Assembly: GCA_023444045.1 (NCBI GenBank)
Contig: JAEZRQ010000006.1
Location: 29,533-93,532, forward strand
Reading direction: 5' to 3'
DNA length: 64,000 nucleotides
From: Candidatus Parcubacteria bacterium
GTDB taxonomy: Bacteria > Patescibacteriota > Patescibacteriia > Patescibacteriales > UBA12465
The position numbers and the translations under genes were made by a program. Position 1 is the stretch's first letter; the number at the start of each line of letters is the position of its first letter. This document shows, one piece after another, positions 3,288 to 33,238 of the stretch. The notes beneath the pieces were generated by a model. The model had not been told where the DNA came from. It searched no databases and saw only the letters and a list, made by a program, of their open reading frames with translations.

Positions 3288-3310
3288 AATAATATAAATA
3301 TAGAAAATTT

Positions 3311-12690: not shown

Positions 12691-15600
12691 GTGATAGATG
12701 AATTATTACAAAAATTAAATAAAGCGCAGCAAGAAGCGGTCACCCATGAAAATGGCCCACTCTTAATTGTGGCTGGGGCGGGAACTGGTAAAACAACGGT
12801 TTTAATTAATCGTTTAGCTTATTTAGTACTAGAAAAAGGTTTATCAACCGAAGAGATTTTATTACTGACTTTTACTGAGAAATCAGCCGCTGAGTTAGAA
12901 GAAAGAGCTGATAAATTATTACCTTACGGTTATGTTGATTTATGGATCCACACTTTTCATGGTTTTTGCGAACGTATTTTACGCGAACGTGCTTTAGATA
13001 TTGGCTTGTCAGCCGATTTTAAATTGCTATCAGCAACTGAACAATGGATTTTGATAAAGAAAAATTTAGCCAAATTTGATTTGGATTATTATAAACCACT
13101 TGGTAATCCTACTAAATTTATTTCTGAGCTGTTGCGCCATTTTTCTCGCTTAAAAGATGAAAATATTTCAGCTGACGATTATTTAAAAACTGTGAAAGAA
13201 AGTAATGAAGAGGATGAAATGGAATTAAAGCGGCTCCAGGAACTAGCTAGTGCTTATAAAACCTATAATCAGCTGCTGATTGAAAATAATTATTTAGACT
13301 TCGGTGACTTGATTGTTTATACCATTAAATTATTTAGAGACAGACCAAATATTTTGCATCTTTATCAGAAGCAATTTAAACATATTATGGTTGATGAATT
13401 TCAGGATACCAACTGGGCCCAGTATGAGTTAGTGAAGATGCTAGCACAACCAAACAATAATCTCACGGTTGTCGGCGATGACGATCAATGTTTACCAGGG
13501 AGCGCTTTAATAGAAACAGATAAGAAAATTAAAAAAATTAAAGACATAAAAGTTGGCGATGAAGTAGTAACAGCGGTTGGTAAAGGGTATTTAAGTTATT
13601 CTAAGGTTAACTTGATAAATAAAACAAAAAAGAAATGCCGTCTTTTAACATTTAATTTAAAATCTGGTAAGAAAATAATGGTAACAGATAATCATAAGCT
13701 ATTTTCTTTTACTCCTCGCATTTCTAATAAGACATATTTTTATGTTTATTTAATGCTTAAGCAAGAATTAGGTTGGCGAATGGGCATGACTAACGACTTA
13801 GCGACTCGTTTAAGATTGGAACGGGGAGCAGATAGTATTATTCCGGTTGGTTGCTATAAATCTTTAGAAGAAGCTCGCTTTCATGAAGTATTATTTTCTT
13901 TAAAATATGGTATTCCGACCTCTTGTTTTCAAGAGCGCGGTGGTATCATGGATAAAAAAAATTGGAGTGAAAAATTGTATCAAGAATTAAAAGTAGACGA
14001 TGCTGTTAGATTGTTGGCTCAAGACAAGAATATTGATTTAAACTACCCACCCTATTGTTTACAGGCAGTTAAGAGAGGTTCTAAATCTAGAATTATAATC
14101 AGCTTAGAAATGTGTTGTCGCCGTTATCGTTCTAAATATGATAAGAATGGTTTTTTAGATCATCCTCAGGTTCTACATTCCTTGAACTTAGAAACAAGCG
14201 ACACGGAAGCAATTACTAAGCTTAAAAAACTTAATTTGCCTCTTACAGCCGCCAAAAAAGGTAAACGGGTTAGGGTTACTAGCACTGATTTGGTTCATTT
14301 AGGGGAAGTGGCTAAAAAAATTCAGCAGCAGGTTGGTGGGTTTATTGAGGTCAAGATGAATATTGCTAAGGATAAAACCAAGTACTTAAAATCTTTAGTT
14401 ATTCCGGCTAAAAATATTTTTCCTGGTATGTTATTGCCTATAATGTCTGATAAAGGTTTGGTTTATGAAGAAATAATTAGCCGCAGTGAAAAAGATAAAT
14501 TAGAAACTGTATATGATTTAGAAGTTGACCGCACTCATAATTTTATTGCTAATGGAGTGGCGGTTCATAATTCTATCTATAAATTCCGCGGGGCCTCCAT
14601 TTCTAATATTATGCAGTTTAAAGATGACTATCAAACTGCTAAAGAGTTAGTGCTAGTTGATAATTATCGTTCCCGCCAAGAAATTTTGGATTATTCTTAT
14701 GAGTTTATTAAACATAATAATCCTAATCGCCTGGAAGAAAAATTAAAGATTAATAAAAAGCTAAAATCTGGCGCTAACTTTGAAAATAAAGAAACTGCGG
14801 CTGTAAAATATTTGAATTTTGATCGCGGCGAAGAAGAGGTTTCTTTTGTTGCTTCACAAATTAGCGATTTACATCAGCAGACCGGTGCTAATTGGTTTGA
14901 TTTCGCAATTCTAGTTAGAGCTAACGATACAGCTGATGCTTATGTAAAAGAATTGAATCGCTTAGGGGCGCCTAATCAATTTGTTTCTTTAAAAGGTCTT
15001 TATTTTAAACCAATTATTTTGGATTGTTTAGCATATCTTAGGTTACTTGATAATTATCATGAATCTTCAGCCCTTTTCAGGGTCTTAAATATGGAACCTT
15101 TTAAAGTTAGTCACTTAGATATTATTACGATTAATAAATTTGCTAAGCGAAAAGTTTGGTCTTTATTTGAGGCTTTAAAAAATATTGAAGCAATTCCTGG
15201 CATTTCTAAGTTAGCTAAAGAAAATACCAAAAAACTTTTAACTCTAATTGAAACTCATTCTAAGTTGGTAGCAGAATCATCGCCCAGTAAGATATTTTTA
15301 AGATTCGTCTATGATTCAGGAATGCTCTCGGCTTATGATTTTGATCGTGATCAAGAACTTTTTTCCTATTTAAATCAGTTCTATCAAAAAATTAAAAAGT
15401 TTGAAGAAACCCTGCCATCGGCTAAGCTGCAAGATTTTATGCAACTAATGGATTTAGAATTAGAAGCAGGTGAGGTTGGTGCTTTAAGGCTTGATTTTGC
15501 TGATAATGATACTGTAAAAATAATGACCGTTCATGCAGCCAAAGGTTTGGAATTTAAGTATGTCTTTTTAGTTAATATTGTTGATAAGAAATTTCCGACT

Positions 15601-16677
15601 ATTACCCGGAGTGAAAAAATCAGTATTCCCGATGAACTAGTCAAAGAAAAAATTAGTGTGAGCAAAGATTTTCATCTGGAAGAAGAACGTCGGCTATTTT
15701 ATGTCGCGATTACCCGGGCTAAAGAAGAATTATTTATTACTGGCGCTAAAGATTATGGTGGTGCCCGCGAGAAAAAACCATCACCTTTTGTAGCGGAAAT
15801 GGGTTTAAATATTACCGAGGTAAGCGGTGACGAAAACTTTATTAATAAGTTAGAGCTTTTAAGAGACTTAGAAAGATTAAATCAGGGTGAGCCGGAAAAA
15901 ACAGAGCAGCTGGTGTTACCAGAAAAATTTTCTTTTTCCCAGTTAGCCGCTTTTTCAACTTGCCCCTTACAATATAAATTTGCTTTTGTTTTAAAGATTC
16001 CCGCACCAAGCGATAAAGCTTCTTTGATTTTTGGTCGAGTGCTGCACAATGTTTTACATGATTTTCTAGAACCACTAGAAGTGGGCGGACTTCAGGAAAG
16101 TTTATTTACTAAGAAAGAAGTAAAACTAGAGGAGAAAAAGTTATTGGCGCTTTATGATGAAAGGTGGCAAGCTGATGGTTATGAGGATAAAGAAGAGCGA
16201 GAGAAATATTATCAAAAAGGCAAAAAGATACTACGAGCTTTTTTTGATAATTTAAAGAACGAAGATGTTCCTAACATTCTTTATCTTGAGAAAAACTTTA
16301 CTTTTAAAATTGGCGGCGGGATAATTAAGGGGGCGATTGATCGAGTTGACCGTTTACCAGACGGTACTTTGGAAATTATTGACTATAAGACCGGTAACCC
16401 TAAAGAAAAACTTGAGCTAAAGGATAAAAAACAATTAATTCTTTATAAAATATTTTTGGAAGAATTTTTACAAATTAAGGTTAGTAAGTTAAGTTATTAT
16501 TATTTAGAGGGAACCTATAAAACCTCTTTTGAGGCTAAAGAAAAAGAAGTAGAAAAATTAAGGGCAGAGGTTTTAGAGGAAATCAATGAAATTAAAAAAG
16601 GGAATTTTCCTCCTAATCCAACCGAAATGTGCAAATTCTGTGATTTTCGCAGTATTTGCCAGTGGCGGTTAAAATAA
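12691..16677 (+). CDS. UvrD/PcrA/AddA-type SF1 helicase fused to a C-terminal Cas4/AddB-like Fe-S PD-(D/E)XK nuclease; contains an intein
   Basis: Walker A AGAGTGKT, motif II VDEFQDTN, motif III GDDDQ|intein|SIYKFRGA. C-terminal Cys cluster (STCPLQYKF ... CKFCDFRSIC) with an EIIDYK-type nuclease motif. Confidence 0.85.
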   Translation: MIDELLQKLNKAQQEAVTHENGPLLIVAGAGTGKTTVLINRLAYLVLEKGLSTEEILLLTFTEKSAAELEERADKLLPYGYVDLWIHTFHGFCERILRERALDIGLSADFKLLSATEQWILIKKNLAKFDLDYYKPLGNPTKFISELLRHFSRLKDENISADDYLKTVKESNEEDEMELKRLQELASAYKTYNQLLIENNYLDFGDLIVYTIKLFRDRPNILHLYQKQFKHIMVDEFQDTNWAQYELVKMLAQPNNNLTVVGDDDQCLPGSALIETDKKIKKIKDIKVGDEVVTAVGKGYLSYSKVNLINKTKKKCRLLTFNLKSGKKIMVTDNHKLFSFTPRISNKTYFYVYLMLKQELGWRMGMTNDLATRLRLERGADSIIPVGCYKSLEEARFHEVLFSLKYGIPTSCFQERGGIMDKKNWSEKLYQELKVDDAVRLLAQDKNIDLNYPPYCLQAVKRGSKSRIIISLEMCCRRYRSKYDKNGFLDHPQVLHSLNLETSDTEAITKLKKLNLPLTAAKKGKRVRVTSTDLVHLGEVAKKIQQQVGGFIEVKMNIAKDKTKYLKSLVIPAKNIFPGMLLPIMSDKGLVYEEIISRSEKDKLETVYDLEVDRTHNFIANGVAVHNSIYKFRGASISNIMQFKDDYQTAKELVLVDNYRSRQEILDYSYEFIKHNNPNRLEEKLKINKKLKSGANFENKETAAVKYLNFDRGEEEVSFVASQISDLHQQTGANWFDFAILVRANDTADAYVKELNRLGAPNQFVSLKGLYFKPIILDCLAYLRLLDNYHESSALFRVLNMEPFKVSHLDIITINKFAKRKVWSLFEALKNIEAIPGISKLAKENTKKLLTLIETHSKLVAESSPSKIFLRFVYDSGMLSAYDFDRDQELFSYLNQFYQKIKKFEETLPSAKLQDFMQLMDLELEAGEVGALRLDFADNDTVKIMTVHAAKGLEFKYVFLVNIVDKKFPTITRSEKISIPDELVKEKISVSKDFHLEEERRLFYVAITRAKEELFITGAKDYGGAREKKPSPFVAEMGLNITEVSGDENFINKLELLRDLERLNQGEPEKTEQLVLPEKFSFSQLAAFSTCPLQYKFAFVLKIPAPSDKASLIFGRVLHNVLHDFLEPLEVGGLQESLFTKKEVKLEEKKLLALYDERWQADGYEDKEEREKYYQKGKKILRAFFDNLKNEDVPNILYLEKNFTFKIGGGIIKGAIDRVDRLPDGTLEIIDYKTGNPKEKLELKDKKQLILYKIFLEEFLQIKVSKLSYYYLEGTYKTSFEAKEKEVEKLRAEVLEEINEIKKGNFPPNPTEMCKFCDFRSICQWRLK
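13489..14571 (+). mobile_element. intein, 361 aa, in helicase motif III, probably with a degenerate endonuclease domain
   Basis: Starts with Cys (CLPGSALIET, block A), has block B TDNH, ends VYDLEVDRTHNFIANGVAVHN followed by Ser (+1). Excising it restores the contiguous GDDDQSIYKFRGA helicase motif. In frame with the host ORF. Confidence 0.8.
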
Positions 16678-23316: not shown

Positions 23317-26010
23317 ATGAGAAGAAGACTGGCCTCTTTTTTGAAAAGATTTGCCTTGCCATTTTTATTAATTTTGGCGTTTTTTCTATTGTTTAATAGC
23401 GTTTCTGCAGCTACAGTTGATGTGGGAATAGACCAGGTAGATAGTAATATTGGTCTAGAGAATAATAGCCCAACTACAATTGTCATTAGAATTATTCAAA
23501 TAATTTTAGGACTACTGGGAATAATTTCGGTTGTCATTGTTATCTATGGAGGGTTTTTATGGATGACTTCTAGTGGCAGTGAAGAAAAAATTTCTAAAGC
23601 TAAGAGATTGTTAAAAAATGCTGTCATTGGTTTGATTATTATTTTATCTTCTTGGGGGATTGTTTATTTTGTTTTAACCAAATTACTAGGTATTAGTGAT
23701 TCAGTCAGTTTGTTTAGATCTCCTAGCAATGTTAGTAATTCTAATAATTTAAGTTTAGGAGCTTTAGGTTCTTGTTCGCTGGAATCTGTCTATCCCAGTC
23801 CCGGTGCTACAGATGTTCCTAGAAATTCCACTATCTTAATAACTGCTAAAGAAGCTTTTCAGCTAGACACTGTTTGTCTTAATAAAGATACTAAAAGGCC
23901 TTGTGCTTGTGATAATACCGCTAATTGCAATTTATTAAATTTTGAAAATATTCAAATATACCAAACAAATGAGGGCAATTCCTGTTCCCCTGGCAACTGC
24001 GGAACTAATTTAAAAGAGGTGGAAGTCTCTGTTCCGGCTGGCAATAAAACTATTGTTTTAAAGCCGCTAGTTAATCTAGGGGCCGCTAGTGGAAAAGTAG
24101 AGTATGGAGTTAAGCTAACAAATGATCTTAAAAAATTTGGTGGCGAAGCTCTTTTTTCGTCTTGTTCATCTGACTATTTAGAATGGTTTTTTGAAGTTAA
24201 TAATACTTTAGATCTTACCCCACCCCAAGTAACCTCTGGCGGATTTTTTCCTCAAGTGGACAATGCGGCTGATTTAGTAAAGATAAATTCCGAGGCTAAG
24301 GCCGCTTCAGGGAAAATTGTTATTACCAGTTGCCCAAATACCTACACCCCCGCCAGTTTAAGTAATGTTACCAAGATTGGGAATTCGGTTGACGCTGAAG
24401 TTTTAGTAAATCCAAATTATTCAGGAATCATTACGGATTTTAAAGTTGAGGTTGCTGGTAATAAAATGCGTCTTTTTAGTGGCAACAGTCTCTTGGATTC
24501 GGTAGACATTGTTAATAATGAGGCTAATTTTTCTAGCTATTTTTTGGTCAAGTTATCTAGTGTTAGTTCGGGTAATTCCTGGAATGTTATTGTTAAGCCC
24601 GTTCAGGCGGCTGATACTTTAGCAGTGGGCTCAAATTCTTACATCTTCGCTGACCGTGAAAAAAATGCCAACAATGAAATCGCTGTTCCTGATAATTGTT
24701 CACCAACTGCTATGGCTACTAATATTGAAATTGCTTTAAGTGGCCACAAGGAGATTAATGTTGTAAGTTCGGGTGGGACTTTGACGCTATTTGCTAAACA
24801 AACTGGCATATCTGGTAATAGTTTGCCACTTTCTTCCAGTGCCAAAGGATTGGAATTACAACCATTTTCTGGTGGGGCCGAAAAAAGTGATTCTTATGAA
24901 ATAAGGGGCGTGCAGGATAAACCAATGAATTCAATCATTCAAATTAATTTTAATGAACCGATTAATCCAATGGTTCTTTCTGGTACGTCTGATGAATTAA
25001 GTAATTTTGTTCAGATAGTTAATGCTAATGCTTCTGCTAAATCTGCTGGCGAGTCTTGTTCTTTAGACAGTGATTGTTTGTCTTATAGCTGCCAAGCTAC
25101 TAAATGCGCTGGTAATTATATTAGCGGCACCTTTTCTTTAGATAACTCTTACCAAACGGCGGAATTTGTTTCCAATAAAGAATGTGGTGTTAATAGTTGT
25201 GGGGAGAAAATGTATTGTCTACCAGCTAGTAGCCACTTAGCTGTTAGACTTAAGGCGGCTACTTTAAAGTCCTGTAGCACCGTTTCTGATTGCAGCGCTT
25301 TAGCTCCTTATTCAGAATGTGTTAGCAGTGTTTGCCATAACAGTAGTACGGGTGAGAACTATCCGGTAGCTAATTCTTTACAGTTAGACGGTATCGTTGA
25401 CTTAGCCTTTAACTCTTTAGACGGTAATCGCGATGGACTAGCTGATGGACCAATAATAAAAGTTTACCCTTACTTTGTAGAGGGGGATGCTAATTTAGAA
25501 AAAAGAGATGGTTTTGAATTCTCTTTCTTTATTAGTAATCAACTAAACTTAACACCACCAAGCATTGCCTTAACCTCTCCAAGACTCGAGGAAGATGGGG
25601 TAATGCTCTCAGCTCCAGTAGTAATTGATTTTAATGACTTAATGATGCAAAGCACTTTAAAATCCGGCAGCCTTTCTATGAGTAATGAACTAGTAAAGAC
25701 TGAGCATAAGTTAATTAATATAAAAAGCTCAGTTGATAAGCCTTTAGGTTATTGGATAGAAAGCGAGAACAAAGAAATTGGTACTCTTGATGGAATTCCT
25801 GATTATACTTCAGCCAGAATTTTACATTCAGATTTTTTTGAATCAGTTACTTATATTTCCCAAATTGGTTCAGGAGTTAAAAATATTTATCAAAATTGTT
25901 TTAAACCAAGTATTGGTCCGGGTTGTTTTAATCTAAGCGAAGCTAATCCTTCTTGCTGTTTTGGTGAGGGAACAAATGCCTTAGATGCTAACGGCAACTG
26001 TGCCAATTAA
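23317..26010 (+). CDS. large secreted surface protein (897 aa): signal peptide + two-helix membrane-hairpin module + Ig-like (SbsA/Big-type) domains + Cys-rich region
   Basis: Sec signal (…NSVSA-ATV). Two hydrophobic helices flanking GGFLWMTSSGSEEKISKAK. Big-like motifs (VYPSPGATDVPRNSTILITAKEAF; PMNSIIQINFNEPINPMVL). Paired Cys in the C-terminal half. Confidence 0.7.
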   Translation: MRRRLASFLKRFALPFLLILAFFLLFNSVSAATVDVGIDQVDSNIGLENNSPTTIVIRIIQIILGLLGIISVVIVIYGGFLWMTSSGSEEKISKAKRLLKNAVIGLIIILSSWGIVYFVLTKLLGISDSVSLFRSPSNVSNSNNLSLGALGSCSLESVYPSPGATDVPRNSTILITAKEAFQLDTVCLNKDTKRPCACDNTANCNLLNFENIQIYQTNEGNSCSPGNCGTNLKEVEVSVPAGNKTIVLKPLVNLGAASGKVEYGVKLTNDLKKFGGEALFSSCSSDYLEWFFEVNNTLDLTPPQVTSGGFFPQVDNAADLVKINSEAKAASGKIVITSCPNTYTPASLSNVTKIGNSVDAEVLVNPNYSGIITDFKVEVAGNKMRLFSGNSLLDSVDIVNNEANFSSYFLVKLSSVSSGNSWNVIVKPVQAADTLAVGSNSYIFADREKNANNEIAVPDNCSPTAMATNIEIALSGHKEINVVSSGGTLTLFAKQTGISGNSLPLSSSAKGLELQPFSGGAEKSDSYEIRGVQDKPMNSIIQINFNEPINPMVLSGTSDELSNFVQIVNANASAKSAGESCSLDSDCLSYSCQATKCAGNYISGTFSLDNSYQTAEFVSNKECGVNSCGEKMYCLPASSHLAVRLKAATLKSCSTVSDCSALAPYSECVSSVCHNSSTGENYPVANSLQLDGIVDLAFNSLDGNRDGLADGPIIKVYPYFVEGDANLEKRDGFEFSFFISNQLNLTPPSIALTSPRLEEDGVMLSAPVVIDFNDLMMQSTLKSGSLSMSNELVKTEHKLINIKSSVDKPLGYWIESENKEIGTLDGIPDYTSARILHSDFFESVTYISQIGSGVKNIYQNCFKPSIGPGCFNLSEANPSCCFGEGTNALDANGNCAN

Positions 26011-26030
26011 TCGATAAATTTTGTTTTTAT

Positions 26031-29000
26031 ATGTTTAAAAAAAATATCAAATTATATAGTTTAATATCTATTCTTGGGGTAGTATTTTTATTTTCTGCTA
26101 AAGCTGTTTTGGGTGTTGATGCTGGCATTGATACTGTTGGTAGTGATTTGTCTCTATCTGATAAAAGTCCAATCCAAATTGCCACCAGCATTATTAATGT
26201 AATCATGAGCATTCTTGGACTGTTAGCCGTTGCTTTTGTGTTGTGGGGTGGTTTTATCTGGATGACTTCAAATGGGAGTGAAGAAAAAATTGCTCAAGCT
26301 AAAAAAATTCTTAGAAATGGTGGTATTGGTTTGGTAATTATTTTATCTGCCTGGGGAATTACTTATTTTGTCTTAACTAAGTTATTAGATTCTGTTGGTA
26401 CCGGTAACGGTGGTTTTGATGGCTGTACTAGTGGCGCGACATCTTCTTGCGGTTGTGGTGGTGAGCAAACCTGCACTAATGGCAGTTGGGGACCATGTCT
26501 TGGCTCTTCTTGTCAGCCACTTATTGACGGACCAACCAGCTGTGACGGAAAACCGGCGGTTGACAAGTGTCAACCAGATGCTGGTTTGTGTGGGGATGAT
26601 TATTTCTGTAATGAAAATAGTTGTCTGTGCGAGCCAAAAGCTAGCTTAGGAGAATCTTGTAACGCTAATTCAAGTGGAACTTGTTCGGCTGATGATAGCT
26701 TGTGCGGTCCTTATTTAAAATGTGACCCCAATGATTGTGTTTGTGTTGGCCCTCCGGTAATTACCGGCGTTAGTCCAGCAGGAGGATTCTGTGTTAACGA
26801 TCAAAACAGGGGCTGTAACACCGATGCTGATTGTTTAGGTGGAGCAAAGTGTGATGTTATTACTCCCAATGGTGGCAGTAATAATTTTCTTACTATCTAT
26901 GGTTATAATTTTGGGACAGCTACTAACCTGTTTGAAAATATTTTAACTAATATTGATTTTGAAAAGGGGGCAGAAGGGGCTCTGCCAAATGATTGGACCG
27001 CCTCTAATCAAAAGAATTCTAAAGTAGGAATTTCTAAGAAAGAAGCTCGCTCAGGGGAGCAGAGTGTTTTGATTCATCAGGATTCTAACATAGTCTATCC
27101 AGGCACCTGCACTAAGAGTATTTGTCAAAATTTATCTTCTTGTTCTTGGAGTGATGCTAATAAAACTTGTACTTTCCTGCAGGGCGACGATGCACATAGA
27201 CAAGCGCCAGCAGTTTATAGTGAAGGACAGAGTTTAGTTTGGGGAAACACTAATAGGACTATGTGGGCCAAACTGACATATAATTTAGCCCCTCTTGACT
27301 TTCAGGTTGGCGATACTTATTCAATTCAATTTTATTATAAAGGAAAAAACACAGCCAACGTTTCAGTGGGAATTGGCTATAATTTAGGCTGGACATCTCA
27401 GTGTATTGGTTATTCTTCATATGGAGCTTTAAAACCTGGTTACAGTTGGAATGGGTCAGCTGTTACTCCAACTCCCCCTGAAGGAGAAGATCCTTGTGCT
27501 CCTGCTTATGGGAAAACTTGTGCTGATCAACAAAATACTTGTTGTGTTAATGCCCCAAATCAAACTAAGTGTTATCAGTTTTTAAACATGACGGCTATTC
27601 CTAAGGGGAATGTTGATGATTGGACCCTTTATTCTTATACCTTTCAATATACTCCAGAGATGGATTCTTGGTTAAATAGCGCTGGGAAAAAGGCGATTGA
27701 AATTGGAATGTCAATTGGATATAACTCTACTCTAACAGGAACAGATTTATATATTGATGATTTTACCGTTACTAAAATTTTAAATACCGGACAAATAACT
27801 TTTTTGGGAGCAGACCAGAGTCAACAACAATTAGCTAATTTTCCAAAACTTTTAAATCCCAATTGTGTTAGCTATTGGACTGATCGGCAAATTACTATTG
27901 CGGTGCCATCTGGTGCGGCTACTGGTCCAATTCAGATAAAAAGGGAAGGTGAATTTGCTGATAATATTGACACCACCAACAATGAAGTTGGCCCAATTAT
28001 TCCAGATTTTATTAAAAACGACATATCTAGACCAAGTTTGTGCCAAATCAGCCCTAGTCAGGGATTATTAGGTGAGAAGGTTGATTATCAGGGAATTAAT
28101 TTAAAAAATGGCGTGGCTTACTTTGGAGAATATTCCAACGCTTACAGAGGAATAAACTCTATTTTTACTGCTGATAATTTATCGGGCCAAACTATGGCGC
28201 CAAATATAGTTCCTGGTAAAACTACTACTTTTATTGAAAGAACCGCGGCCGGGATTAATCAAAAAAGTAATGCTTTGATGTTTGTTAAAGAAAGAGAGGC
28301 TGAGGCTGGTCCTTATATTTCCTCATTTTATCCAAAGACAGGTGCCGCTGGTCAATACGTTACCATCCTAGGTGGTGGTTTTGGTAATCTCCGTGGTAGC
28401 AGACAGGTATTTTTTGGAGATAAAGAAGCCTCATACTCTTTCCCAGAAGTTTGTTCAAATTCAGTTTGGAGTGATAGTCAAATCATTGTTAAAGTGCCTG
28501 ATGGTTTAAACCCTGGTAATTATCAAATTAAAGTGAATTTAGGGGATAAAACAGTAAATACTGATTTATTAGCCCCAAATCATAATTTTAAATATGACCC
28601 CAGTCAAACTCTAAAAACTAGTTTATGTAAAATAGACCCAAGTAGGGGGCAGGTTGGTGATAAAGTTACTCTGTGGGGTGAATATTTTGGTAATCAAGAA
28701 ACAGATGCTCTAGTAGTTTTTAACCGTGGTGTTAATATTACTTCAAAAATTACTAAAGATGGTTTAGCTGATAAAGTTGAAACAATTGTTCCGGTAGATG
28801 CTAGTAAAAATCCTCCAGTTAGCGCTATCACTGGCCCTGTTAAGGTAATGAAAAATAGTGAGTGGGGCAATGAACTTAATTTTACAGTTGGTAAATGTTC
28901 TTCTAATAATGAATGTAGCGCTTCTAGTCCAGTTTGTTGTCCTGGGAATACATATAAATCTGGTTCCTGTGCGGCCTCAACAATGGCTTGTTATTTTGAT

Positions 29001-32000
29001 GTCCCTAATTCTGTCTATGAAACTAAATTTGATACAACCATAGGTTCTGTTAACGTGGAAGATTTTAGTAGTTGTATTGAAATGGCTACTTTCTATAACG
29101 GTTGCCAGACCGGACAATTCTGTCCTAATTCTCCAGGTAAGTGTTCCCCCTTTAATCCAATTGGCGTTATGGAAGTTGTAAGTGCTTGTGGAGCTAATGG
29201 CTTAGAGTGTGGTAGTATTAAATCTTGTGAGTTAGATGATAAAACCACGCCACGTATTATGTACTGGGCGGGCAAGGTTAATCAGCACTGGGATTTAGCT
29301 AGTGGTAGTTTTGTGACTGATCCTGACGGCTCTTCTGGCGCTGGTTTAAATAAACTGTCATATTGTCAGAAGTTTTATCCAGAGACAGAAAGTGTGGTCG
29401 CTTATAAAAAAGAGACCAGTAATACTTGGAAAAATGCGGGTAATTTAGATAATTTTACTGGCACCGCCCTTTCTTATCGTTGTGTCTTAAAAGGCGAAAC
29501 CGTGTGTTCTTATGACAAGAATAATGATAATTGTCAGATTAAAGATTCTCTACTGCAAAATAAAACTTGTCTTTTAGAAAAGGAATTAGAATACTCCTTA
29601 GCGGGGCAAAACTATAAAGGCAGTCTAAGTTGTCGCTCTTATCAAGATAAAGTTAGTGGTCAAAGTTATTTTGCTAAACACCTCAAGGTTTCCACTTCTT
29701 GTCCTCAAGGCTGGTTAAATGTTGGTGGTGGTTACTGTATTGATGCTGCCTTAACTAAATGTGACCCTTGTGCTGATGGTTTCAAGTGTGTGGATAATAA
29801 TAATGATGATTTTGGAATTTGTGAGTCTGATAAAATTTGCCCCGCCTCTTCTTATTGTGGTATTAATCCTAATGATTCCAAGCAGCTAGCTTGTTTAAAG
29901 GATCAGGATAAGAGTTGTGATTGTTGTTGTGAAATTGGTCAAGATACCAGAGATTGTTGCGCTCCGCTTACATGTGCTGGTACTTGTGGTAGTGACACTA
30001 CTAATGATGGCAAGGGTTATGGTAGTTGTTCTGGTTGCGCTGATGTTCCTGGTGATCAAAAAATAAAAGATGCCGCCTGCAATTGTAGTACTACTAGCGG
30101 TAAGTTCTGTGATATCACTAAACCTGGTGGTATCTGTGTTGATTGTGCAGCGCTTGATGAAGCCTCTTGTTCACTTCATGCTACTCAATGCTGCTTTGAT
30201 CAAATGAAAGGTATTTGTCAGGGAGGTGACGGAACACAATTACCTGGTGGTAAATGCGCTTATTATGATTGCGATGCTGAAAATCAAACTTGTAACCAAA
30301 ATCCTTTAGCCACAGGACGATTCACTTCGCCCGATGTTTGTGAAACCTCTTGTAAAGATAATCCAACAACAGTTTGCGATTTACCAGCAAGTCAAAATCC
30401 TCAGAGCTGTTCGGCTTTAGATAACTGCTGTTTTGATGATAAAAATAAAAAATGTCTTTCCGGTCTAGACGCTATTAATGTTTCTGGCGTTAAATATTGT
30501 GCTTATTATGATTGTGATTTTAGCCAGTTAGACGGTGCCTCGCTTTATAAGTGTAGCGCTGCTAAAATTTCGGGAAATTATTTGAGCCTGGCTAATTGTC
30601 AAGATGCTTGTGGTAATACTAATACTAATTTACCAGGTTCAAGCTGTCAGTCTGACACAGCTGATGTTTGTGATGTCAGTGCTTGTTCGGGAGATTACTC
30701 TTGTTTAAGTGAATCCGGAAATCCTCCTTCCACATCAGGCTGTGGTACTTGCTGCTGTGACCCTAAAAATGAGAACTCTTGTTCTGGTACAGATAATTTG
30801 ACCTGTACACCTAATGTGGGATCTTGCAGTGGAAATGATCGCGGTTTGTGTTGTGGATGTACTTCCGATAGTCAATGTGGTATTGCCTCAGCTGGTTGTG
30901 GGACAGATACTTGTTGTCATGGCAGACCACAAATAGTAAAAACTTCACCAGTAAATGGTCAAGAAAAGGTGTGCCGCAATAGCCAAATTGTTATTAATTT
31001 CAACGAAGAAATGGACGCTACTAGCTTGGGTAATAATATTCTTCTAATTGAAGAAAAAGAATATGGCAAGGAGCTGTGTAATCTTGGTACAGCAGTTTCT
31101 TTAGAGAATACTAACCCTAATAGAAATTTCTTGGCTACTATTTATAGAAAAATAGCACTGATCTTTAATAGAATATTTAACAAGCAAGCTTATCAAGTCT
31201 TAGCTTCTATGCCTTCAGAAGACAAATTATATTGTATTATTCCCGGTACCGTTGATACTCAAACAGAATATGCTCCTAACGGGGTAACTTCAACAGTTGC
31301 TTATATTAAACCGAACAGTGTCCTTAATGCTAACAACAATTATTTTGTAGTTGTTAAAGGTGATGAAAATATGGATAGTAATTCTGGAATTATGAGTCTG
31401 CAAAAAATTGGTTTTGATGGTTCTGCTGCTAAACCGCTAGGAGACACAACTCTTCTTACTGGGGCAGAATTTAACAAAGTTTCCTTTAAAAATTCTTATG
31501 TCTTTAGTTTTAAGACTATGGACGATAATAGTGGTAAGGATGGTTTATGTACAATTGATAAAGTTGAGGTTAAGCCCAGCTCTTTCTTAATTAAAACAGA
31601 TGAAAATAATCCTTCAGATGATAATCCTTCAGATAATAACTTTGATAAAATAAATGATAATGACAGGTTGCTGACAGCTATGGCATATAGCGCTGATAAC
31701 CAACTTATTCAGCCAGTCACGGGGTACTATTGGACTTTTAATTGGAGCATTGATGATACTTCAGTGGCTCAAAAAATTGACAAATCGGGCTTAAAAAATA
31801 ATCAGTTGTTAGTAAGATCGGTCACTGGAGTAACTGATAAGAGTACCAAAATTTCTGCCAAAGTTAATATGAACAATTTCAAAACATCAAGCGGTTGTTC
31901 TGTAAATTGTGTTTGCAATGATAATAATTGTGATAACAGATGCTGTAACGCTAATTTTGAGGGGGAAAATGCTACTAGTGAATCAACTCTTTATGTTTTC

Positions 32001-33221
32001 TTATGCGCTAATCCTTGGCCGGCAGAAAAGAATGGTATTTGGAGTCCTTGGTATGATACCGGGGAATGTCGTGATGCTAATCAGAATATTATTCCTTGTG
32101 CTAACTATAATTATAAGTTCTACTATTGTCGTGATGCCGGAGAACCTGGTACTTTTGATGATTTACCAGTTGTTTCTGACCCGGCCTTGATTCTTGGTCC
32201 TTCAAGTAATTTAATCTGTAGCACAGATGGTCTTCCTTGCAGTACACAAGGGGCAGTTTGCGGTAACAATGGAACCTGTGTCTGGAGCGTGTTAAAAGAA
32301 TCATACTTCTTTAGAGAAGCCGCTCCTCAAGCTGGGCGTATTAACAAAATACTTAGTACTGGTGTTGGCGGAGAGATAGCATTAGGCTGGAATTCACCTA
32401 TTAACACAGAAGCACCAATCAGCTCTTTTAAAGTTTATTATGGGCTTAGCTCTGGTGGTTCAACTTTATTAAAAACATTATCCTTGGCTGAAGCTAATTG
32501 TAAAACGGAGAATAATGAGCTGAATTGTTCTTATATATTAAAGGATTTGGTGAATGGACAAAAATATTATTTTAGAGTTTCATCTTTAACCGAGAAGAAA
32601 ACTGAGAGCCCACTTTCTGGCGGCATGGAGATAATTCCCACTGATACCACTCCACCAGATAGACCAGCAAGATTAAAAATAGTTGGTTCCGGTGATGATT
32701 TATTGGTTACCTGGTATCCTGATACTAAGAATGACACTTTATATTATCGCTTATTTCATGGCATATTCCCTGGAAAAATAATGGATTCGTTTGATTCTCA
32801 AGAAAAGGCTACTAGTTTAACTCTTAAACAGAGTGATTATCGCGCAGGCGATCATTACTTTTCTTTAGCAGCTATTGATTCTTATGGAAATATCAGTGAT
32901 AAGTCTAGTGAAATTAAGGTGACTATTCCTAATACCCCAACCAATGTAACTGTTGCTGATAATAGGTATTATTTAACCGTTTCTTGGAATAAGAATAATA
33001 ATCCAGGAAATACTAAGTATGCAGTTTTTATGAGTAAAGATGGTGGCGGTGAAATACGTGCTAATGATCTTAATCAGGAGCTAATTGATCAATCATCCTT
33101 TAATATTGATTCCAAAAAATATGAAAATGGCACTTATTATATTTCTGTTGAGGCCTATGATCACCAAAATTTTAAGAGTAAAAGATCGGAATCATTTAAA
33201 ATTGATATAAATAAAAATTAA
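26031..33221 (+). CDS. giant secreted surface protein (2396 aa): same N-terminal module as upstream gene, jelly-roll/CBM-like domain, several IPT/TIG-like domains, about 600-aa extremely Cys-rich region, SbsA-Ig-like and FN3-like C-terminal domains
   Basis: N-terminus paralogous to 23317 gene (GGFIWMTSNGSEEKIAQAK; WGITYFVLTKLL). IPT/TIG-like PVITGVSPAGG..., ISSFYPKTGAAGQYVTILGGGFG, CKIDPSRGQVGDKVTLWGEYFG. FN3-like PDRPARLKIVGSGDDLLVTW. Confidence 0.75.
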   Translation: MFKKNIKLYSLISILGVVFLFSAKAVLGVDAGIDTVGSDLSLSDKSPIQIATSIINVIMSILGLLAVAFVLWGGFIWMTSNGSEEKIAQAKKILRNGGIGLVIILSAWGITYFVLTKLLDSVGTGNGGFDGCTSGATSSCGCGGEQTCTNGSWGPCLGSSCQPLIDGPTSCDGKPAVDKCQPDAGLCGDDYFCNENSCLCEPKASLGESCNANSSGTCSADDSLCGPYLKCDPNDCVCVGPPVITGVSPAGGFCVNDQNRGCNTDADCLGGAKCDVITPNGGSNNFLTIYGYNFGTATNLFENILTNIDFEKGAEGALPNDWTASNQKNSKVGISKKEARSGEQSVLIHQDSNIVYPGTCTKSICQNLSSCSWSDANKTCTFLQGDDAHRQAPAVYSEGQSLVWGNTNRTMWAKLTYNLAPLDFQVGDTYSIQFYYKGKNTANVSVGIGYNLGWTSQCIGYSSYGALKPGYSWNGSAVTPTPPEGEDPCAPAYGKTCADQQNTCCVNAPNQTKCYQFLNMTAIPKGNVDDWTLYSYTFQYTPEMDSWLNSAGKKAIEIGMSIGYNSTLTGTDLYIDDFTVTKILNTGQITFLGADQSQQQLANFPKLLNPNCVSYWTDRQITIAVPSGAATGPIQIKREGEFADNIDTTNNEVGPIIPDFIKNDISRPSLCQISPSQGLLGEKVDYQGINLKNGVAYFGEYSNAYRGINSIFTADNLSGQTMAPNIVPGKTTTFIERTAAGINQKSNALMFVKEREAEAGPYISSFYPKTGAAGQYVTILGGGFGNLRGSRQVFFGDKEASYSFPEVCSNSVWSDSQIIVKVPDGLNPGNYQIKVNLGDKTVNTDLLAPNHNFKYDPSQTLKTSLCKIDPSRGQVGDKVTLWGEYFGNQETDALVVFNRGVNITSKITKDGLADKVETIVPVDASKNPPVSAITGPVKVMKNSEWGNELNFTVGKCSSNNECSASSPVCCPGNTYKSGSCAASTMACYFDVPNSVYETKFDTTIGSVNVEDFSSCIEMATFYNGCQTGQFCPNSPGKCSPFNPIGVMEVVSACGANGLECGSIKSCELDDKTTPRIMYWAGKVNQHWDLASGSFVTDPDGSSGAGLNKLSYCQKFYPETESVVAYKKETSNTWKNAGNLDNFTGTALSYRCVLKGETVCSYDKNNDNCQIKDSLLQNKTCLLEKELEYSLAGQNYKGSLSCRSYQDKVSGQSYFAKHLKVSTSCPQGWLNVGGGYCIDAALTKCDPCADGFKCVDNNNDDFGICESDKICPASSYCGINPNDSKQLACLKDQDKSCDCCCEIGQDTRDCCAPLTCAGTCGSDTTNDGKGYGSCSGCADVPGDQKIKDAACNCSTTSGKFCDITKPGGICVDCAALDEASCSLHATQCCFDQMKGICQGGDGTQLPGGKCAYYDCDAENQTCNQNPLATGRFTSPDVCETSCKDNPTTVCDLPASQNPQSCSALDNCCFDDKNKKCLSGLDAINVSGVKYCAYYDCDFSQLDGASLYKCSAAKISGNYLSLANCQDACGNTNTNLPGSSCQSDTADVCDVSACSGDYSCLSESGNPPSTSGCGTCCCDPKNENSCSGTDNLTCTPNVGSCSGNDRGLCCGCTSDSQCGIASAGCGTDTCCHGRPQIVKTSPVNGQEKVCRNSQIVINFNEEMDATSLGNNILLIEEKEYGKELCNLGTAVSLENTNPNRNFLATIYRKIALIFNRIFNKQAYQVLASMPSEDKLYCIIPGTVDTQTEYAPNGVTSTVAYIKPNSVLNANNNYFVVVKGDENMDSNSGIMSLQKIGFDGSAAKPLGDTTLLTGAEFNKVSFKNSYVFSFKTMDDNSGKDGLCTIDKVEVKPSSFLIKTDENNPSDDNPSDNNFDKINDNDRLLTAMAYSADNQLIQPVTGYYWTFNWSIDDTSVAQKIDKSGLKNNQLLVRSVTGVTDKSTKISAKVNMNNFKTSSGCSVNCVCNDNNCDNRCCNANFEGENATSESTLYVFLCANPWPAEKNGIWSPWYDTGECRDANQNIIPCANYNYKFYYCRDAGEPGTFDDLPVVSDPALILGPSSNLICSTDGLPCSTQGAVCGNNGTCVWSVLKESYFFREAAPQAGRINKILSTGVGGEIALGWNSPINTEAPISSFKVYYGLSSGGSTLLKTLSLAEANCKTENNELNCSYILKDLVNGQKYYFRVSSLTEKKTESPLSGGMEIIPTDTTPPDRPARLKIVGSGDDLLVTWYPDTKNDTLYYRLFHGIFPGKIMDSFDSQEKATSLTLKQSDYRAGDHYFSLAAIDSYGNISDKSSEIKVTIPNTPTNVTVADNRYYLTVSWNKNNNPGNTKYAVFMSKDGGGEIRANDLNQELIDQSSFNIDSKKYENGTYYISVEAYDHQNFKSKRSESFKIDINKN

Positions 33222-33238
33222 ATTTTAAATATAAAAAC

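What the first reader, a model, noticed from the sequence alone, without database searches (positions are those of the whole stretch)
13489..14571. Intein (361 aa) in motif III of a UvrD/AddA-type helicase-nuclease
Directly visible in the translation. The helicase motif GDDDQ is followed by CLPGSALIE..., and 361 residues later ...THNFIANGVAVHN is followed by SIYKFRGA. Removing the insert reconstitutes the canonical GDDDQSIYKFRGA motif III. Block A (Cys1), block B (TDNH) and blocks F/G (terminal HN, +1 Ser) are present. The roughly 200-aa central part probably holds a homing-endonuclease domain, but I could not find a clean LAGLIDADG pair. Inteins are well known in replication/repair ATPases, but an insertion at this UvrD position in a CPR-like genome is worth cataloguing. 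It also tests whether the endonuclease is still active.
Basis: partly seen in the sequence, partly recalled or inferred. Interest (0 to 1): 0.6.

Follow-up and report, generated by a model that had tools for sequence, protein, structure and literature searches.

The report
Helicase intein with GIY-YIG-like nuclease
A genuine self-splicing protein insert (intein) interrupts the motor motif of a DNA-repair helicase, and its middle part is not one of the usual intein nucleases but a conserved, previously unnamed module that looks like a GIY-YIG nuclease, a type the literature says was not known inside inteins.

Summary
Window 13489-14571 encodes a 361-aa class-1 intein (Cys1, T-D-N-H, His-Asn, +1 Ser) inserted between Q and S of SF1-helicase motif III (GDDDQ|SIYKFRGA) in a 1328-aa UvrD/PcrA helicase fused to a PD-(D/E)XK nuclease. 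Pfam Intein_splicing and Hint score above threshold, and the spliced protein is colinear with PcrA. UvrD inteins are already catalogued, and this allele is annotated in some coliphages. The new part is the central 220 aa. It has no Pfam, LAGLIDADG or HNH match. It defines a family of at least 158 clusters, almost always in inteins at this motif-III site. A confident AlphaFold model shows a beta-beta-alpha-beta-alpha subdomain plus a second alpha/beta subdomain. Several weak, concordant tests place the first subdomain beside GIY-YIG nucleases, with Arg replacing the 'YIG' Tyr. The module is under strong purifying selection (omega about 0.06) in the window's clade. In phi92-like coliphages the intein shows precise presence/absence, a co-conversion tract, and much younger DNA than its host gene. 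Best reading: a mobile intein carrying a GIY-YIG-like homing endonuclease. Nuclease activity is inferred, not shown.

The parts
12691..16677 (+). Host gene: precursor of a UvrD/PcrA-type SF1 helicase fused to a C-terminal PD-(D/E)XK (Cas4/AddB-like) nuclease; 1328 aa including the intein, 967 aa after splicing
   Evidence: ORF. Pfam UvrD-helicase E 4.6e-75, UvrD_C E 3.4e-49, PDDEXK_1 E 7e-38. TIGR00372 cas4 69.1 bits against a cut-off of 65. The same gene call appears on the source scaffold.
12691..13488 (+). N-extein (266 aa): helicase motifs I to the first half of motif III, ending ...VVGDDDQ
13489..14571 (+). Intein, 361 aa, class 1 (Cys1 ... His-Asn)
13489..13722 (+). N-terminal Hint half (intein aa 1-78): block A Cys1 (13489-13491) and block B T-D-N-H (13684-13695)
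   Evidence: Pfam Hint on aa 1-81. TIGR01445 on aa 1-72 at 23.3 bits, just under its 24.5 cut-off. Residues checked.
13723..14382 (+). Central module (intein aa 79-298): the conserved, unnamed two-subdomain insert that is the putative homing endonuclease
   Evidence: No Pfam hit at E<=10. 158 relatives found in the exhaustive search. AlphaFold2 pLDDT 90.5, pTM 0.78. Absent from the natural mini-intein P0009.
13738..13908 (+). GIY-YIG-like subdomain (intein aa 84-140; beta-beta-alpha-beta-alpha). Family-invariant residues: Y87 (13747), R97 (13777), G99 (13783), R107 (13807), E111 (13819), E133 (13885), Y140 (13906)
13957..14025 (+). Two-helix hairpin linking the two subdomains (intein aa 157-179)
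   Evidence: AlphaFold2 secondary structure; coordinates
14095..14358 (+). Second alpha/beta subdomain (intein aa 203-290; beta-beta-alpha-beta-beta-alpha-beta). No assignable family; inferred to be the DNA-binding/target-recognition part
   Evidence: Only weak fold hits (LAGLIDADG meganucleases E>=0.018 at TM 0.2; eIF1/SUI1-like; BMC shell proteins). No Pfam hit for its consensus.
14383..14571 (+). C-terminal Hint half (intein aa 299-361): blocks F and G, ending V-H-N (His-Asn at 14566-14571)
   Evidence: Pfam Intein_splicing, TIGR01443, alignments to DnaB/DnaX/gp41-1 mini-inteins, DNA
14572..14574 (+). +1 Ser codon (TCT), the nucleophile of the C-extein
14572..16677 (+). C-extein: second half of motif III (SIYKFRGA), helicase domains 2A/2B and the PD-(D/E)XK nuclease (about 15928-16662)

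Best explanation
Window 13489-14571 is a class-1 intein. Shown from sequence: it is translated in frame inside the helicase-nuclease precursor, it carries all canonical splicing residues (Cys1, Thr66/His69 of block B, His360-Asn361, Ser+1), and removing it rebuilds helicase motif III exactly. Inferred: it removes itself by the standard four-step protein-splicing reaction, which the host needs because motif III would otherwise be split. Its central 220 aa are a dedicated mobility module. The first part is a compact GIY-YIG-like domain with a remodelled catalytic set: Tyr87, Arg97 in place of the 'YIG' tyrosine, Gly99, Arg107, Glu111 in place of the usual His/Tyr, and Glu133. A helical hairpin and a second alpha/beta domain follow, and these probably read the DNA encoding motif III. 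Inferred: the excised intein, or the precursor, cleaves intein-less helicase alleles at or near the motif-III codons. Recombinational repair from the intein-bearing copy then copies the intein in, together with a few tens of bases of flanking extein. Shown for relatives in coliphages: precise presence/absence, a co-conversion tract, and an intein much younger than its host gene. In the window's own CPR clade the element looks vertically inherited over the sampled depth, but it is kept under strong purifying selection.
For: Intein identity. Pfam and NCBIfam hits are above their cut-offs. The C-terminal blocks align to solved DnaB, DnaX and gp41-1 inteins. The spliced extein is colinear with PcrA and UvrD. 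40 of 43 orthologous CPR loci lack the intein and module (35 with a readable uninterrupted motif III); only the three nearest relatives carry the intein.

The module is a real, separable family. The exhaustive search found 158 clusters at E<=1e-3. Nearly all are flanked by both Hint halves and inserted at GDxxQ|[S/C]IYxxRGA. Intein length is tightly peaked at about 356-366 aa. The natural mini-intein P0009 at the same site lacks the module. Y9, M11, G21, E55 and P65 are invariant, and R19, R29 and E33 are at least 90% conserved at about 32% mean identity. All are present in the window copy.

GIY-YIG likeness.
- A confident model (pLDDT 90.5) has beta-beta-alpha-beta-alpha topology.
- After the self-family, Foldseek hits in BFVD are dominated by GIY-YIG nucleases: E from 4e-3, probabilities up to 1.0, rmsd 3.3 A over 95 columns to PBCV-1 Q99169.
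- PF01541 is the top Pfam hit for all four family consensus sequences (E 0.001-0.026), in register, followed by T5orf172 and MUG113. PF01541 and T5orf172 are also the only recurrent families among 40 members.
- The top PDB sequence hit of the subdomain profile is the UPF0213 GIY-YIG protein 1zg2 (E 0.043), in the same register.
- hhalign against the YhbQ family gives P 1.5e-4. Two true GIY-YIG families give 1.1e-4, the module's C-half gives 0.55, and none of 60 shuffles is better.

Function is retained. Omega is about 0.06 for both module halves in L048 vs L052, similar to the Hint halves (0.03-0.07) and the exteins (0.02-0.05). Window vs L048 gives pN 0.066 vs pS 0.55.

Mobility of the family.
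- Intein-plus phages (JohannJBalmer, phi92) and intein-minus phages (EmilieFrey, alia) differ by exactly the 346-aa intein. 25 of 41 substitutions lie within -27..+50 nt of the junction.
- Between JohannJBalmer and Klebsiella phage KP2025, intein pS is 0.10 against extein pS of 0.74-0.81.
- Inteins that are 42-51% identical sit in helicases whose exteins barely align.
Confidence: 0.67

Rival explanations
1. It is a true intein, but the central module is no longer (or never was) a nuclease. It is kept only because a misfolded insert would block splicing of a needed helicase, or it binds DNA without cutting. In this CPR lineage the element would be an immobile, vertically inherited passenger.
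For: The 'YIG' Tyr is replaced by Arg and no conserved Asn was identified. The window sequence has no Pfam nuclease hit. Intein and extein divergence are similar in the window's clade and composition matches the host gene. No activity data exist.
Against: A folding-only constraint does not explain invariant charged and aromatic residues (Y, R, R, E, E) that line up with the GIY-YIG catalytic positions across members only about 25-30% identical. In phages the same module travels with clear recent mobility, which needs a nuclease. Mini-inteins at this site (P0009) show that splicing does not need the module, so an inert module should decay, yet omega is about 0.06. T5orf172, a GIY-YIG subfamily, is documented as having Glu-dependent nuclease activity (PMC10448857).
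Confidence: 0.2
2. The module is a homing endonuclease of a different or new fold, for example a degenerate LAGLIDADG-derived domain. On this view the GIY-YIG resemblance of its first 60 residues is convergent or spurious.
For: The top (non-significant) Foldseek PDB hits are monomeric LAGLIDADG meganucleases (E 0.018-0.5), and the second subdomain has a beta-beta-alpha-beta-beta-alpha topology reminiscent of a LAGLIDADG half-domain. All GIY-YIG scores are below the usual thresholds.
Against: The LAGLIDADG matches have TM about 0.2 and rmsd about 16 A. No LAGLIDADG or HNH Pfam hit appears for the window, for 40 members, or for the consensus sequences. Four independent GIY-YIG comparisons agree on one residue register and on the fold. 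The strongest family invariants lie in the first subdomain, not the second.
Confidence: 0.08
3. The intein has been domesticated. The module senses DNA or damage and gates splicing, so the helicase-nuclease is activated conditionally, and purifying selection reflects host benefit rather than homing.
For: Purifying selection on the module is as strong as on the host protein, in a clade where inheritance looks vertical. Inteins cluster in replication and repair ATPases, which has prompted regulatory hypotheses (PMC4760082).
Against: There is no direct evidence. 40 of 43 orthologues do without the intein. The same module in phages behaves as a classical selfish homing element.
Confidence: 0.04
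4. The 361-aa segment is not an intein but a lineage-specific insertion in the helicase (a 1B/2B-type accessory domain) that stays in the mature protein.
For: None beyond the fact that SF1 helicases tolerate large insertions.
Against: Hint and Intein_splicing score above threshold. The canonical junction residues are present. The insertion splits the invariant motif III between Q and S. Precise presence/absence is seen among orthologues and among 98%-identical phage genes.
Confidence: 0.01

Closest known systems
Canonical class-1 inteins with an embedded homing endonuclease (e.g. PI-SceI-type LAGLIDADG inteins, HNH inteins)
   Same: Same Hint splicing fold split by an inserted mobility domain between blocks B and F. 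Same Cys1 / T-x-x-H / H-N / +1 nucleophile chemistry. Same habit of targeting an invariant ATPase motif.
   Different: The inserted domain has no LAGLIDADG or HNH signature. It is a two-subdomain module whose first part resembles GIY-YIG nucleases.
Catalogued UvrD inteins (16 in Novikova et al. 2016, PMC4760082) and the annotated intein of phi92-like coliphage UvrD/Rep helicases (BASEL phages Bas62 JohannJBalmer and PaulScherrer)
   Same: Same host family. For the phage elements, the same insertion point (GDEFQ|C...HN|CIYQFRG) and the same central module with all invariants.
   Different: About 25% identity to the window intein. +1 is Cys in the phages and Ser here. The published mentions only count or annotate the intein; none of the papers found describes its endonuclease domain.
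GIY-YIG homing endonucleases (I-TevI, Seg proteins) and T5orf172-type homing endonucleases of ICP1 phages
   Same: A beta-beta-alpha-beta-alpha catalytic core near the N-terminus, followed by a linker and a separate DNA-binding part ('beads on a string'). Conserved Tyr, Gly, Arg and Glu in the same order and spacing.
   Different: Those enzymes are free-standing or intron-encoded. Two papers state that GIY-YIG was not known in inteins (PMC1564403; PMC2677866). Here the 'YIG' Tyr is Arg, the His/Tyr four residues after the Arg is Glu, the Arg-to-Glu spacer is short (26 aa), and there are no NUMOD/HTH hits.
Fractured genes: split inteins with a free-standing GIY-YIG or Vsr-like endonuclease gene between the halves (Dassa et al. 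2009, PMC2677866)
   Same: An association of a GIY-YIG-type nuclease with an intein in a replication/repair gene. It offers a plausible evolutionary route by which an intein acquires such a domain.
   Different: There the nuclease is a separate ORF and the intein is split. Here nuclease and intein are one contiguous in-frame polypeptide, and no alternative-frame ORF of at least 60 aa lies inside the intein.
UPF0213 / YhbQ compact GIY-YIG nucleases (PDB 1zg2; E. coli YhbQ)
   Same: The best sequence-level comparator. The register is Y-x9-[Y/R]-x-G-x-T-x5-R-x3-[H/E] ... E-A-x3-E, with hhalign P 1.5e-4.
   Different: YhbQ proteins are about 100-aa stand-alone cellular enzymes with the canonical Tyr and His. 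Similarity to the module is at the level seen between different GIY-YIG families, not within one family.

Membership tests
Intein (Hint superfamily, class 1) | N-terminal Cys/Ser (block A) and T-x-x-H (block B) | tested here: met
   C1 and T66-D-N-H69. Pfam Hint 33.1 bits against a cut-off of 29.7.
Intein (Hint superfamily, class 1) | C-terminal His-Asn (block G) followed by a Ser/Thr/Cys +1 nucleophile | tested here: met
   ...VAVHN|S. TIGR01443 33.8 bits against a cut-off of 15.6. Pfam Intein_splicing 66.2 bits against a cut-off of 35.8.
Intein (Hint superfamily, class 1) | In-frame insertion whose exact removal restores a colinear, conserved host protein | tested here: met
   The spliced extein aligns without a gap across GDxDQSIYxxRGA of PcrA and UvrD.
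Intein (Hint superfamily, class 1) | Precise presence/absence among orthologues | tested here: met
   3 of 43 CPR orthologues carry it; the other 40 lack it, 35 with a readable uninterrupted motif III. Intein-plus and intein-minus phage alleles are colinear after removal of 346 aa.
Intein (Hint superfamily, class 1) | Protein splicing activity | not testable with these tools
   Needs expression and detection of ligated exteins plus free intein.
LAGLIDADG homing endonuclease domain | One or two LAGLIDADG helices / Pfam LAGLIDADG models | tested here: not met
   No Pfam hit at E<=10 for the module, for 40 members or for the consensus sequences. Fold hits only at TM about 0.2.
HNH homing endonuclease domain | HNH/beta-beta-alpha-metal motif / Pfam HNH models | tested here: not met
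   No hit.
GIY-YIG nuclease superfamily | 'GIY' tyrosine on strand 1 | tested here: met
   Y87 (module Y9) is invariant in 145/145 sequences and aligns to the GIY Tyr of 1zg2, YhbQ and PF01541.
GIY-YIG nuclease superfamily | 'YIG' tyrosine and glycine on strand 2 | tested here: not met
   The Gly is invariant (G99), but the Tyr position is Arg in 147/149 sequences (R97).
GIY-YIG nuclease superfamily | Conserved Arg in helix 1 | tested here: met
   R107 (146/150) aligns to the conserved Arg of 1zg2 and YhbQ, 8 residues after the Gly.
GIY-YIG nuclease superfamily | Conserved metal-binding Glu in helix 2 | tested here: met
   E133 (151/152) sits in E-A-x3-E and aligns to the E-A-x-x-W-E of 1zg2.
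GIY-YIG nuclease superfamily | Conserved Asn after helix 2 | tested here: inconclusive
   No invariant Asn. The corresponding stretch is S-x-x-Y-G-I-P-T, and no structural superposition was available.
GIY-YIG nuclease superfamily | Three-stranded sheet with flanking helices (beta-beta-alpha-beta-alpha core) | tested here: met
GIY-YIG nuclease superfamily | Score above Pfam PF01541 gathering threshold | tested here: not met
   The window sequence gives no hit. The best consensus score is 19.7 bits against 22.6. It is therefore filed as GIY-YIG-like, not as a member.
GIY-YIG nuclease superfamily | Metal-dependent DNA cleavage | not testable with these tools
   Requires purified protein and substrate.
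UvrD/PcrA/Rep SF1A helicase (host protein) | Helicase motifs and domain order; equivalog-level score | tested here: inconclusive
   Pfam UvrD-helicase and UvrD_C hits are strong. All NCBIfam equivalogs (pcrA 456 vs 911, uvrD 346 vs 1144, addA 148 vs 708) fall below their cut-offs. It is a UvrD-family helicase-nuclease fusion, not assignable to PcrA, UvrD or AddA.

The most novel reading that the evidence does not exclude
This module is the founding example of a new class of intein-borne homing endonuclease. It would be a compact 'GIY-RIG' variant of the GIY-YIG nuclease, fused in frame to a novel DNA-recognition domain and specialised on the DNA encoding SF1-helicase motif III. It would be spread across bacteria, CPR and phages, and still actively homing in cultured coliphages. 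That would overturn the textbook statement that intein endonucleases are LAGLIDADG or HNH, and it would provide an E. coli-tractable system.
Probability: 0.5. Interest if true: 0.72.

Novelty: new variant of a known kind. Interest (0 to 1): 0.6.

Why it matters
Inteins in UvrD helicases are ordinary. Their mobility domains, however, have been described as LAGLIDADG or, rarely, HNH, with Vsr-like and EndoVII-like genes reported in non-canonical arrangements. Two papers state explicitly that GIY-YIG domains were not known in inteins. A large, conserved, in-frame GIY-YIG-like module would add a nuclease class to intein biology. It would support the idea that inteins repeatedly captured free-standing homing endonucleases. 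It would also supply a new compact DNA-targeting scaffold with an unusual catalytic set (Arg for Tyr, Glu for His). The hypothesis is directly testable, because intein-plus and intein-minus members exist as near-isogenic cultured E. coli phages (BASEL Bas62 vs Bas61). For annotation, the module currently has no Pfam or NCBIfam model, so at least 158 protein clusters carry about 220 unannotated residues.

Tried and rejected
1. LAGLIDADG and HNH identity of the central part was rejected: no Pfam hit for the window, 40 members or the consensus sequences.
2. A hidden endonuclease ORF in another frame or on the antisense strand, as reported for actinophage inteins, was rejected: there is no ORF of at least 60 aa inside 13489-14571 other than the intein frame.
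3. The whole-module profile against PDB sequences gave nothing relevant.
4. Foldseek against the PDB gave no significant hit.
6. hhalign against 12 I-TevI-type domains gave P 0.028, barely better than shuffles, and was treated as inconclusive.
7. The search for homologous proteins with the short N-subdomain profile returned nothing, not even the family itself, so it was uninformative.
8. The last homologous-protein search returned only close enterobacterial YhbQ proteins, which gave a low-diversity comparator.
9. A rough all-against-all comparison of intein vs extein identity was noisy (r = 0.37, with degenerate alignments). Only pairs re-checked by BLASTP are used.
10. A search for other inteins, or for a GIY-YIG protein such as UvrC, within the window found none.
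11. PHROGs gave only weak Hint-region hits.
12. No RNA element is involved: Rfam found only two tRNAs far away.
Full report
OBSERVATION. The window holds one long ORF, 12691..16677 (+), of 1328 aa. Translating 13489-14571 gives 361 residues without a stop. They begin CLPGSALIE and end THNFIANGVAVHN, preceded by VVGDDDQ and followed by SIYKFRGA.

IS IT AN INTEIN? Yes.
- Pfam Intein_splicing scores 66.2 bits (gathering score 35.8) and Hint 33.1 bits (29.7).
- NCBIfam intein_Cterm scores 33.8 bits (cut-off 15.6). intein_Nterm scores 23.3 bits, just under its 24.5 cut-off.
- The C-terminal 50-60 residues align to solved DnaB, DnaX and CDC21 mini-inteins, the N-terminal part to the gp41-1 intein.
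- Cys1, T66-D-N-H69, H360-N361 and Ser+1 are all present.
- With the 361 residues removed, the 967-aa protein aligns colinearly with PcrA 1pjr (E 2.5e-97) and D. radiodurans UvrD 4c2u, with no gap across vGDaDQSIYrwRGA. From established knowledge of SF1 helicases, this is motif III.
- The host is a UvrD-family helicase fused to a PD-(D/E)XK, Cas4/AddB-like nuclease. It does not reach the equivalog cut-offs for PcrA, UvrD or AddA.
- The window comes from a 542,604-bp metagenome scaffold, and its orthologues are all in Patescibacteria/CPR MAGs.

IS IT NEW THAT UvrD HAS AN INTEIN HERE? No. Novikova et al. (PMC4760082) list 16 UvrD inteins across five phyla. tblastn of the window intein against 50,697 phage genomes finds full-length colinear matches in 55 records, in the UvrD/Rep helicases of phi92-like coliphages among others. 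The BASEL phages JohannJBalmer and PaulScherrer already annotate an 'intein' mat_peptide there. The BASEL paper only says that inteins were delimited by comparative genomics.

THE CENTRAL MODULE. Intein residues 79-298 have no Pfam hit even at E<=10, so this is not a recognisable LAGLIDADG, HNH or GIY-YIG domain. No alternative-frame ORF of at least 60 aa lies inside the intein.
- The word-indexed search found only 10 relatives, all in UvrD helicases. One of them, P0009, is a 176-aa mini-intein at the same site that lacks the module.
- The exhaustive phmmer search of 1.84 billion representatives found 158 clusters at E<=1e-3.
- Almost all have the module between an N-Hint and a C-Hint segment, and almost all sit at GDxxQ|[S/C]IYxxRGA in very diverse SF1 helicases.
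- Intein length is sharply peaked at about 356-366 aa.
- Family invariants cluster in the first 70 residues of the module. Y9, M11, G21, E55 and P65 are invariant. R19, R29, E33, A51, Y62 and F69 are at least 90% conserved, at 32% mean column identity.
- The window copy keeps every one of them.

STRUCTURE. AlphaFold2 on a 40-sequence alignment gives a confident model (pLDDT 90.5, pTM 0.78).
- Module residues 6-62 form beta-beta-alpha-beta-alpha.
- Residues 79-101 form a two-helix hairpin.
- Residues 125-212 form a beta-beta-alpha-beta-beta-alpha-beta subdomain.

IS THE FIRST SUBDOMAIN GIY-YIG-LIKE? Several independent tests were run. Each is weak on its own, but all agree.
(a) Foldseek against BFVD. 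Ranks 1-3 are phage proteins that carry the same module (E 6e-10 to 2e-6). From rank 4 the list is dominated by GIY-YIG nucleases: phage Yoshi (E 4e-3), PBCV-1 Q99169 (probability 1.0, rmsd 3.3 A over 95 columns), intron-associated endonucleases and a SegE-like protein.
(b) Pfam. Among 40 members, the only recurrent families are GIY-YIG (3 members) and T5orf172 (2 members). For four family consensus sequences, PF01541 is the top hit every time (E 0.001-0.026; 15-19.7 bits against a gathering score of 22.6). Module residues 6-43 align to profile positions 2-40. T5orf172 and MUG113 come next. Barth et al. describe T5orf172 as a GIY-YIG subfamily with Glu-dependent nuclease activity.
(c) PDB sequences. 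The N-subdomain profile's best hit among 177,635 PDB sequences is 1zg2, a UPF0213 protein (E 0.043). Y9 aligns to the GIY Tyr, R19 to the YIG Tyr, G21 to Gly, T23 to Thr, R29 to the conserved Arg, E33 to His, and E-A-x3-E55 to E-A-x-x-W-E. The 1zg2 fragment is PF01541 at E 6.7e-9. UPF0213/YhbQ is named a GIY-YIG exodeoxyribonuclease by the databases.
(d) hhalign. The compact N-subdomain alignment against a YhbQ-family alignment gives P 1.5e-4 (probability 51%). Two bona fide GIY-YIG families, I-TevI-like vs YhbQ, give P 1.1e-4. The module's C-half gives 0.55. The best of 60 column shuffles is 7e-4.
My reading is that the subdomain is a divergent GIY-YIG-superfamily domain (probability about 0.75-0.8). 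Two defining tests are not met: the 'YIG' tyrosine is Arg, and the Pfam score is below the gathering threshold. I therefore call it GIY-YIG-like rather than a member. The second subdomain has no assignable relative. By analogy with the modular build of GIY-YIG homing endonucleases, I infer that it binds the target DNA.

IS THE MODULE STILL FUNCTIONAL IN THIS LINEAGE? A scan of one genome per species found 43 orthologous CPR loci.
- Only three carry the intein (L048, L052, L057). They are the three nearest relatives by N-extein identity (86%, 82%, 62%). The other 40 lack both intein and module; 35 of them have a readable uninterrupted motif III.
- Codon-level comparison shows strong purifying selection. 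For L048 vs L052, omega is 0.061 for the GIY-like part and 0.063 for the rest of the module, against 0.03-0.07 for the Hint halves and 0.02-0.05 for the exteins.
- For window vs L048, the GIY-like part has pN 0.066 against pS 0.55. Synonymous sites are near saturation in the window pairs, so those omega values are rough, but pN is far below pS in every region.
- A decaying remnant is therefore excluded.
- In this clade, intein and extein divergence are similar and GC content is equal. Recent transfer into this genome is not indicated.

IS THE FAMILY MOBILE? Yes, in phages.
- The JohannJBalmer helicase gene (2,775 bp) matches phi92-like phages either in full or, at about 98% identity, in two pieces spanning exactly 1,737 bp.
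- After removing the 346-aa intein (C...HN, +1 Cys), intein-plus alleles (JohannJBalmer, phi92) and intein-minus alleles (EmilieFrey, alia) are colinear.
- Of the 41 differences between JohannJBalmer and EmilieFrey, 25 lie between -27 and +50 nt of the junction, mostly at synonymous sites. That is about 32% divergence, against about 1% elsewhere. This is a co-conversion tract.
- Between JohannJBalmer and Klebsiella phage KP2025 the exteins are saturated at synonymous sites (pS 0.74-0.81), while the N-Hint and GIY-like parts have pS 0.10. The GIY-like part shows 1 nonsynonymous against 5 synonymous changes.
- Elsewhere in the family, inteins 42-51% identical over their whole length sit in helicases whose flanks align only over motif patches.

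MECHANISM (steps marked shown or inferred).
- Shown: an in-frame Hint domain with a complete catalytic set splits motif III. Its exact removal restores the helicase. The module is conserved, structured and selected. Relatives are horizontally mobile with co-conversion.
- Inferred: self-splicing by the class-1 pathway. Cleavage of intein-less motif-III DNA by the GIY-YIG-like subdomain, using Y87, R97, R107, E111 and E133. Target recognition by the second subdomain. Copying of the intein by recombinational repair.

LITERATURE AND NOVELTY. Dunin-Horkawicz et al. 2006 state that GIY-YIG enzymes had not been found in inteins. Dassa et al. [quoted passage not shown] A 2025 preprint lists the intein-associated types reported so far (in-frame HNH, antisense LAGLIDADG, Vsr-like, EndoVII-like) and mentions GIY-YIG only in a generic list that cites older work. 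Searches for intein with GIY-YIG, T5orf172, UvrD or phi92 found no description of this module. The library lacks most subscription journals, so prior description cannot be excluded.

VERDICT. The intein is real and ordinary as a kind. Its endonuclease module is a widespread, unannotated, GIY-YIG-like variant that appears undescribed and is directly testable in cultured coliphages.

Noticed in passing
L017, L018, L020, L027, L029, L030, L032, L045, L053 (motif III, about locus position 3300): Several intein-less CPR orthologues, including the closest ones (60-66% identity), read DDDQ-A-IY, with Ala at the residue that would be +1. Others read DDDQ-S-IY. Ala cannot act as the splicing nucleophile, so such alleles could not tolerate this intein and may be 'immune' sites.
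   Followed up: partly
L013 2501-3538 vs L060 (phage inteins): The phage intein is mosaic. Between JohannJBalmer and Klebsiella phage KP2025, the N-Hint and GIY-like part has pS 0.10, while the rest of the module and the C-Hint have pS 0.36-0.42. The putative DNA-binding half evolves faster (omega 0.25 vs 0.03-0.05). This suggests a recombination breakpoint inside the intein and possibly retargeting.
   Followed up: partly
Phage records OZ035770.1 (H84) and MN850632.1 (H93, L015): Two records named Justusliebigvirus alia / Escherichia phage alia differ in the intein: one has the full 2,775-bp helicase gene and the other the 1,737-bp intein-less gene.
   Followed up: partly
P0079 (1872 aa), P0089 (2536 aa), P0139 (2308 aa): Some family members lie far from the usual position. 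P0079 seems to carry a second intein after DEAQDLNK (helicase motif II) as well as the motif-III one. P0139 has a non-helicase-like C-flank (SKQIPMTCKA). A BFVD hit with the module is labelled adenine-specific DNA methyltransferase. The module may therefore occur at other insertion sites.
   Followed up: no
P0067, P0071, P0072, P0099, P0140: Short proteins of 350-380 aa consist of little more than the intein (Hint halves plus module). They start with Met, have degenerate or missing splice-junction residues and lack helicase flanks. They could be free-standing derivatives or pieces of fractured genes.
   Followed up: no
window 25992-33218 (+): A giant ORF of 2409 aa, followed by another of 1140 aa (33215-36634). 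Not examined.
   Followed up: no
window 16544-16674 (C-terminus of the host protein): The PD-(D/E)XK nuclease domain ends with a Cys cluster (…EMCKFCDFRSICQW) and passes the NCBIfam Cas4 cut-off (69.1 vs 65 bits). The helicase therefore carries a Cas4/AddB-type, probably Fe-S, nuclease, although no equivalog (AddA, RecB) is reached.
   Followed up: no
method note (vs 24): The word-indexed protein search found 10 relatives of the intein, whereas the exhaustive search found 158 clusters for the module alone. With a 73-column profile the indexed search returned nothing at all, not even the family itself.
   Followed up: yes
PMC11162368: [quoted passage not shown] Yet GenBank records of BASEL phages (2021) annotate the UvrD/Rep helicase intein, and phi92-like coliphages carry it.
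   Followed up: no
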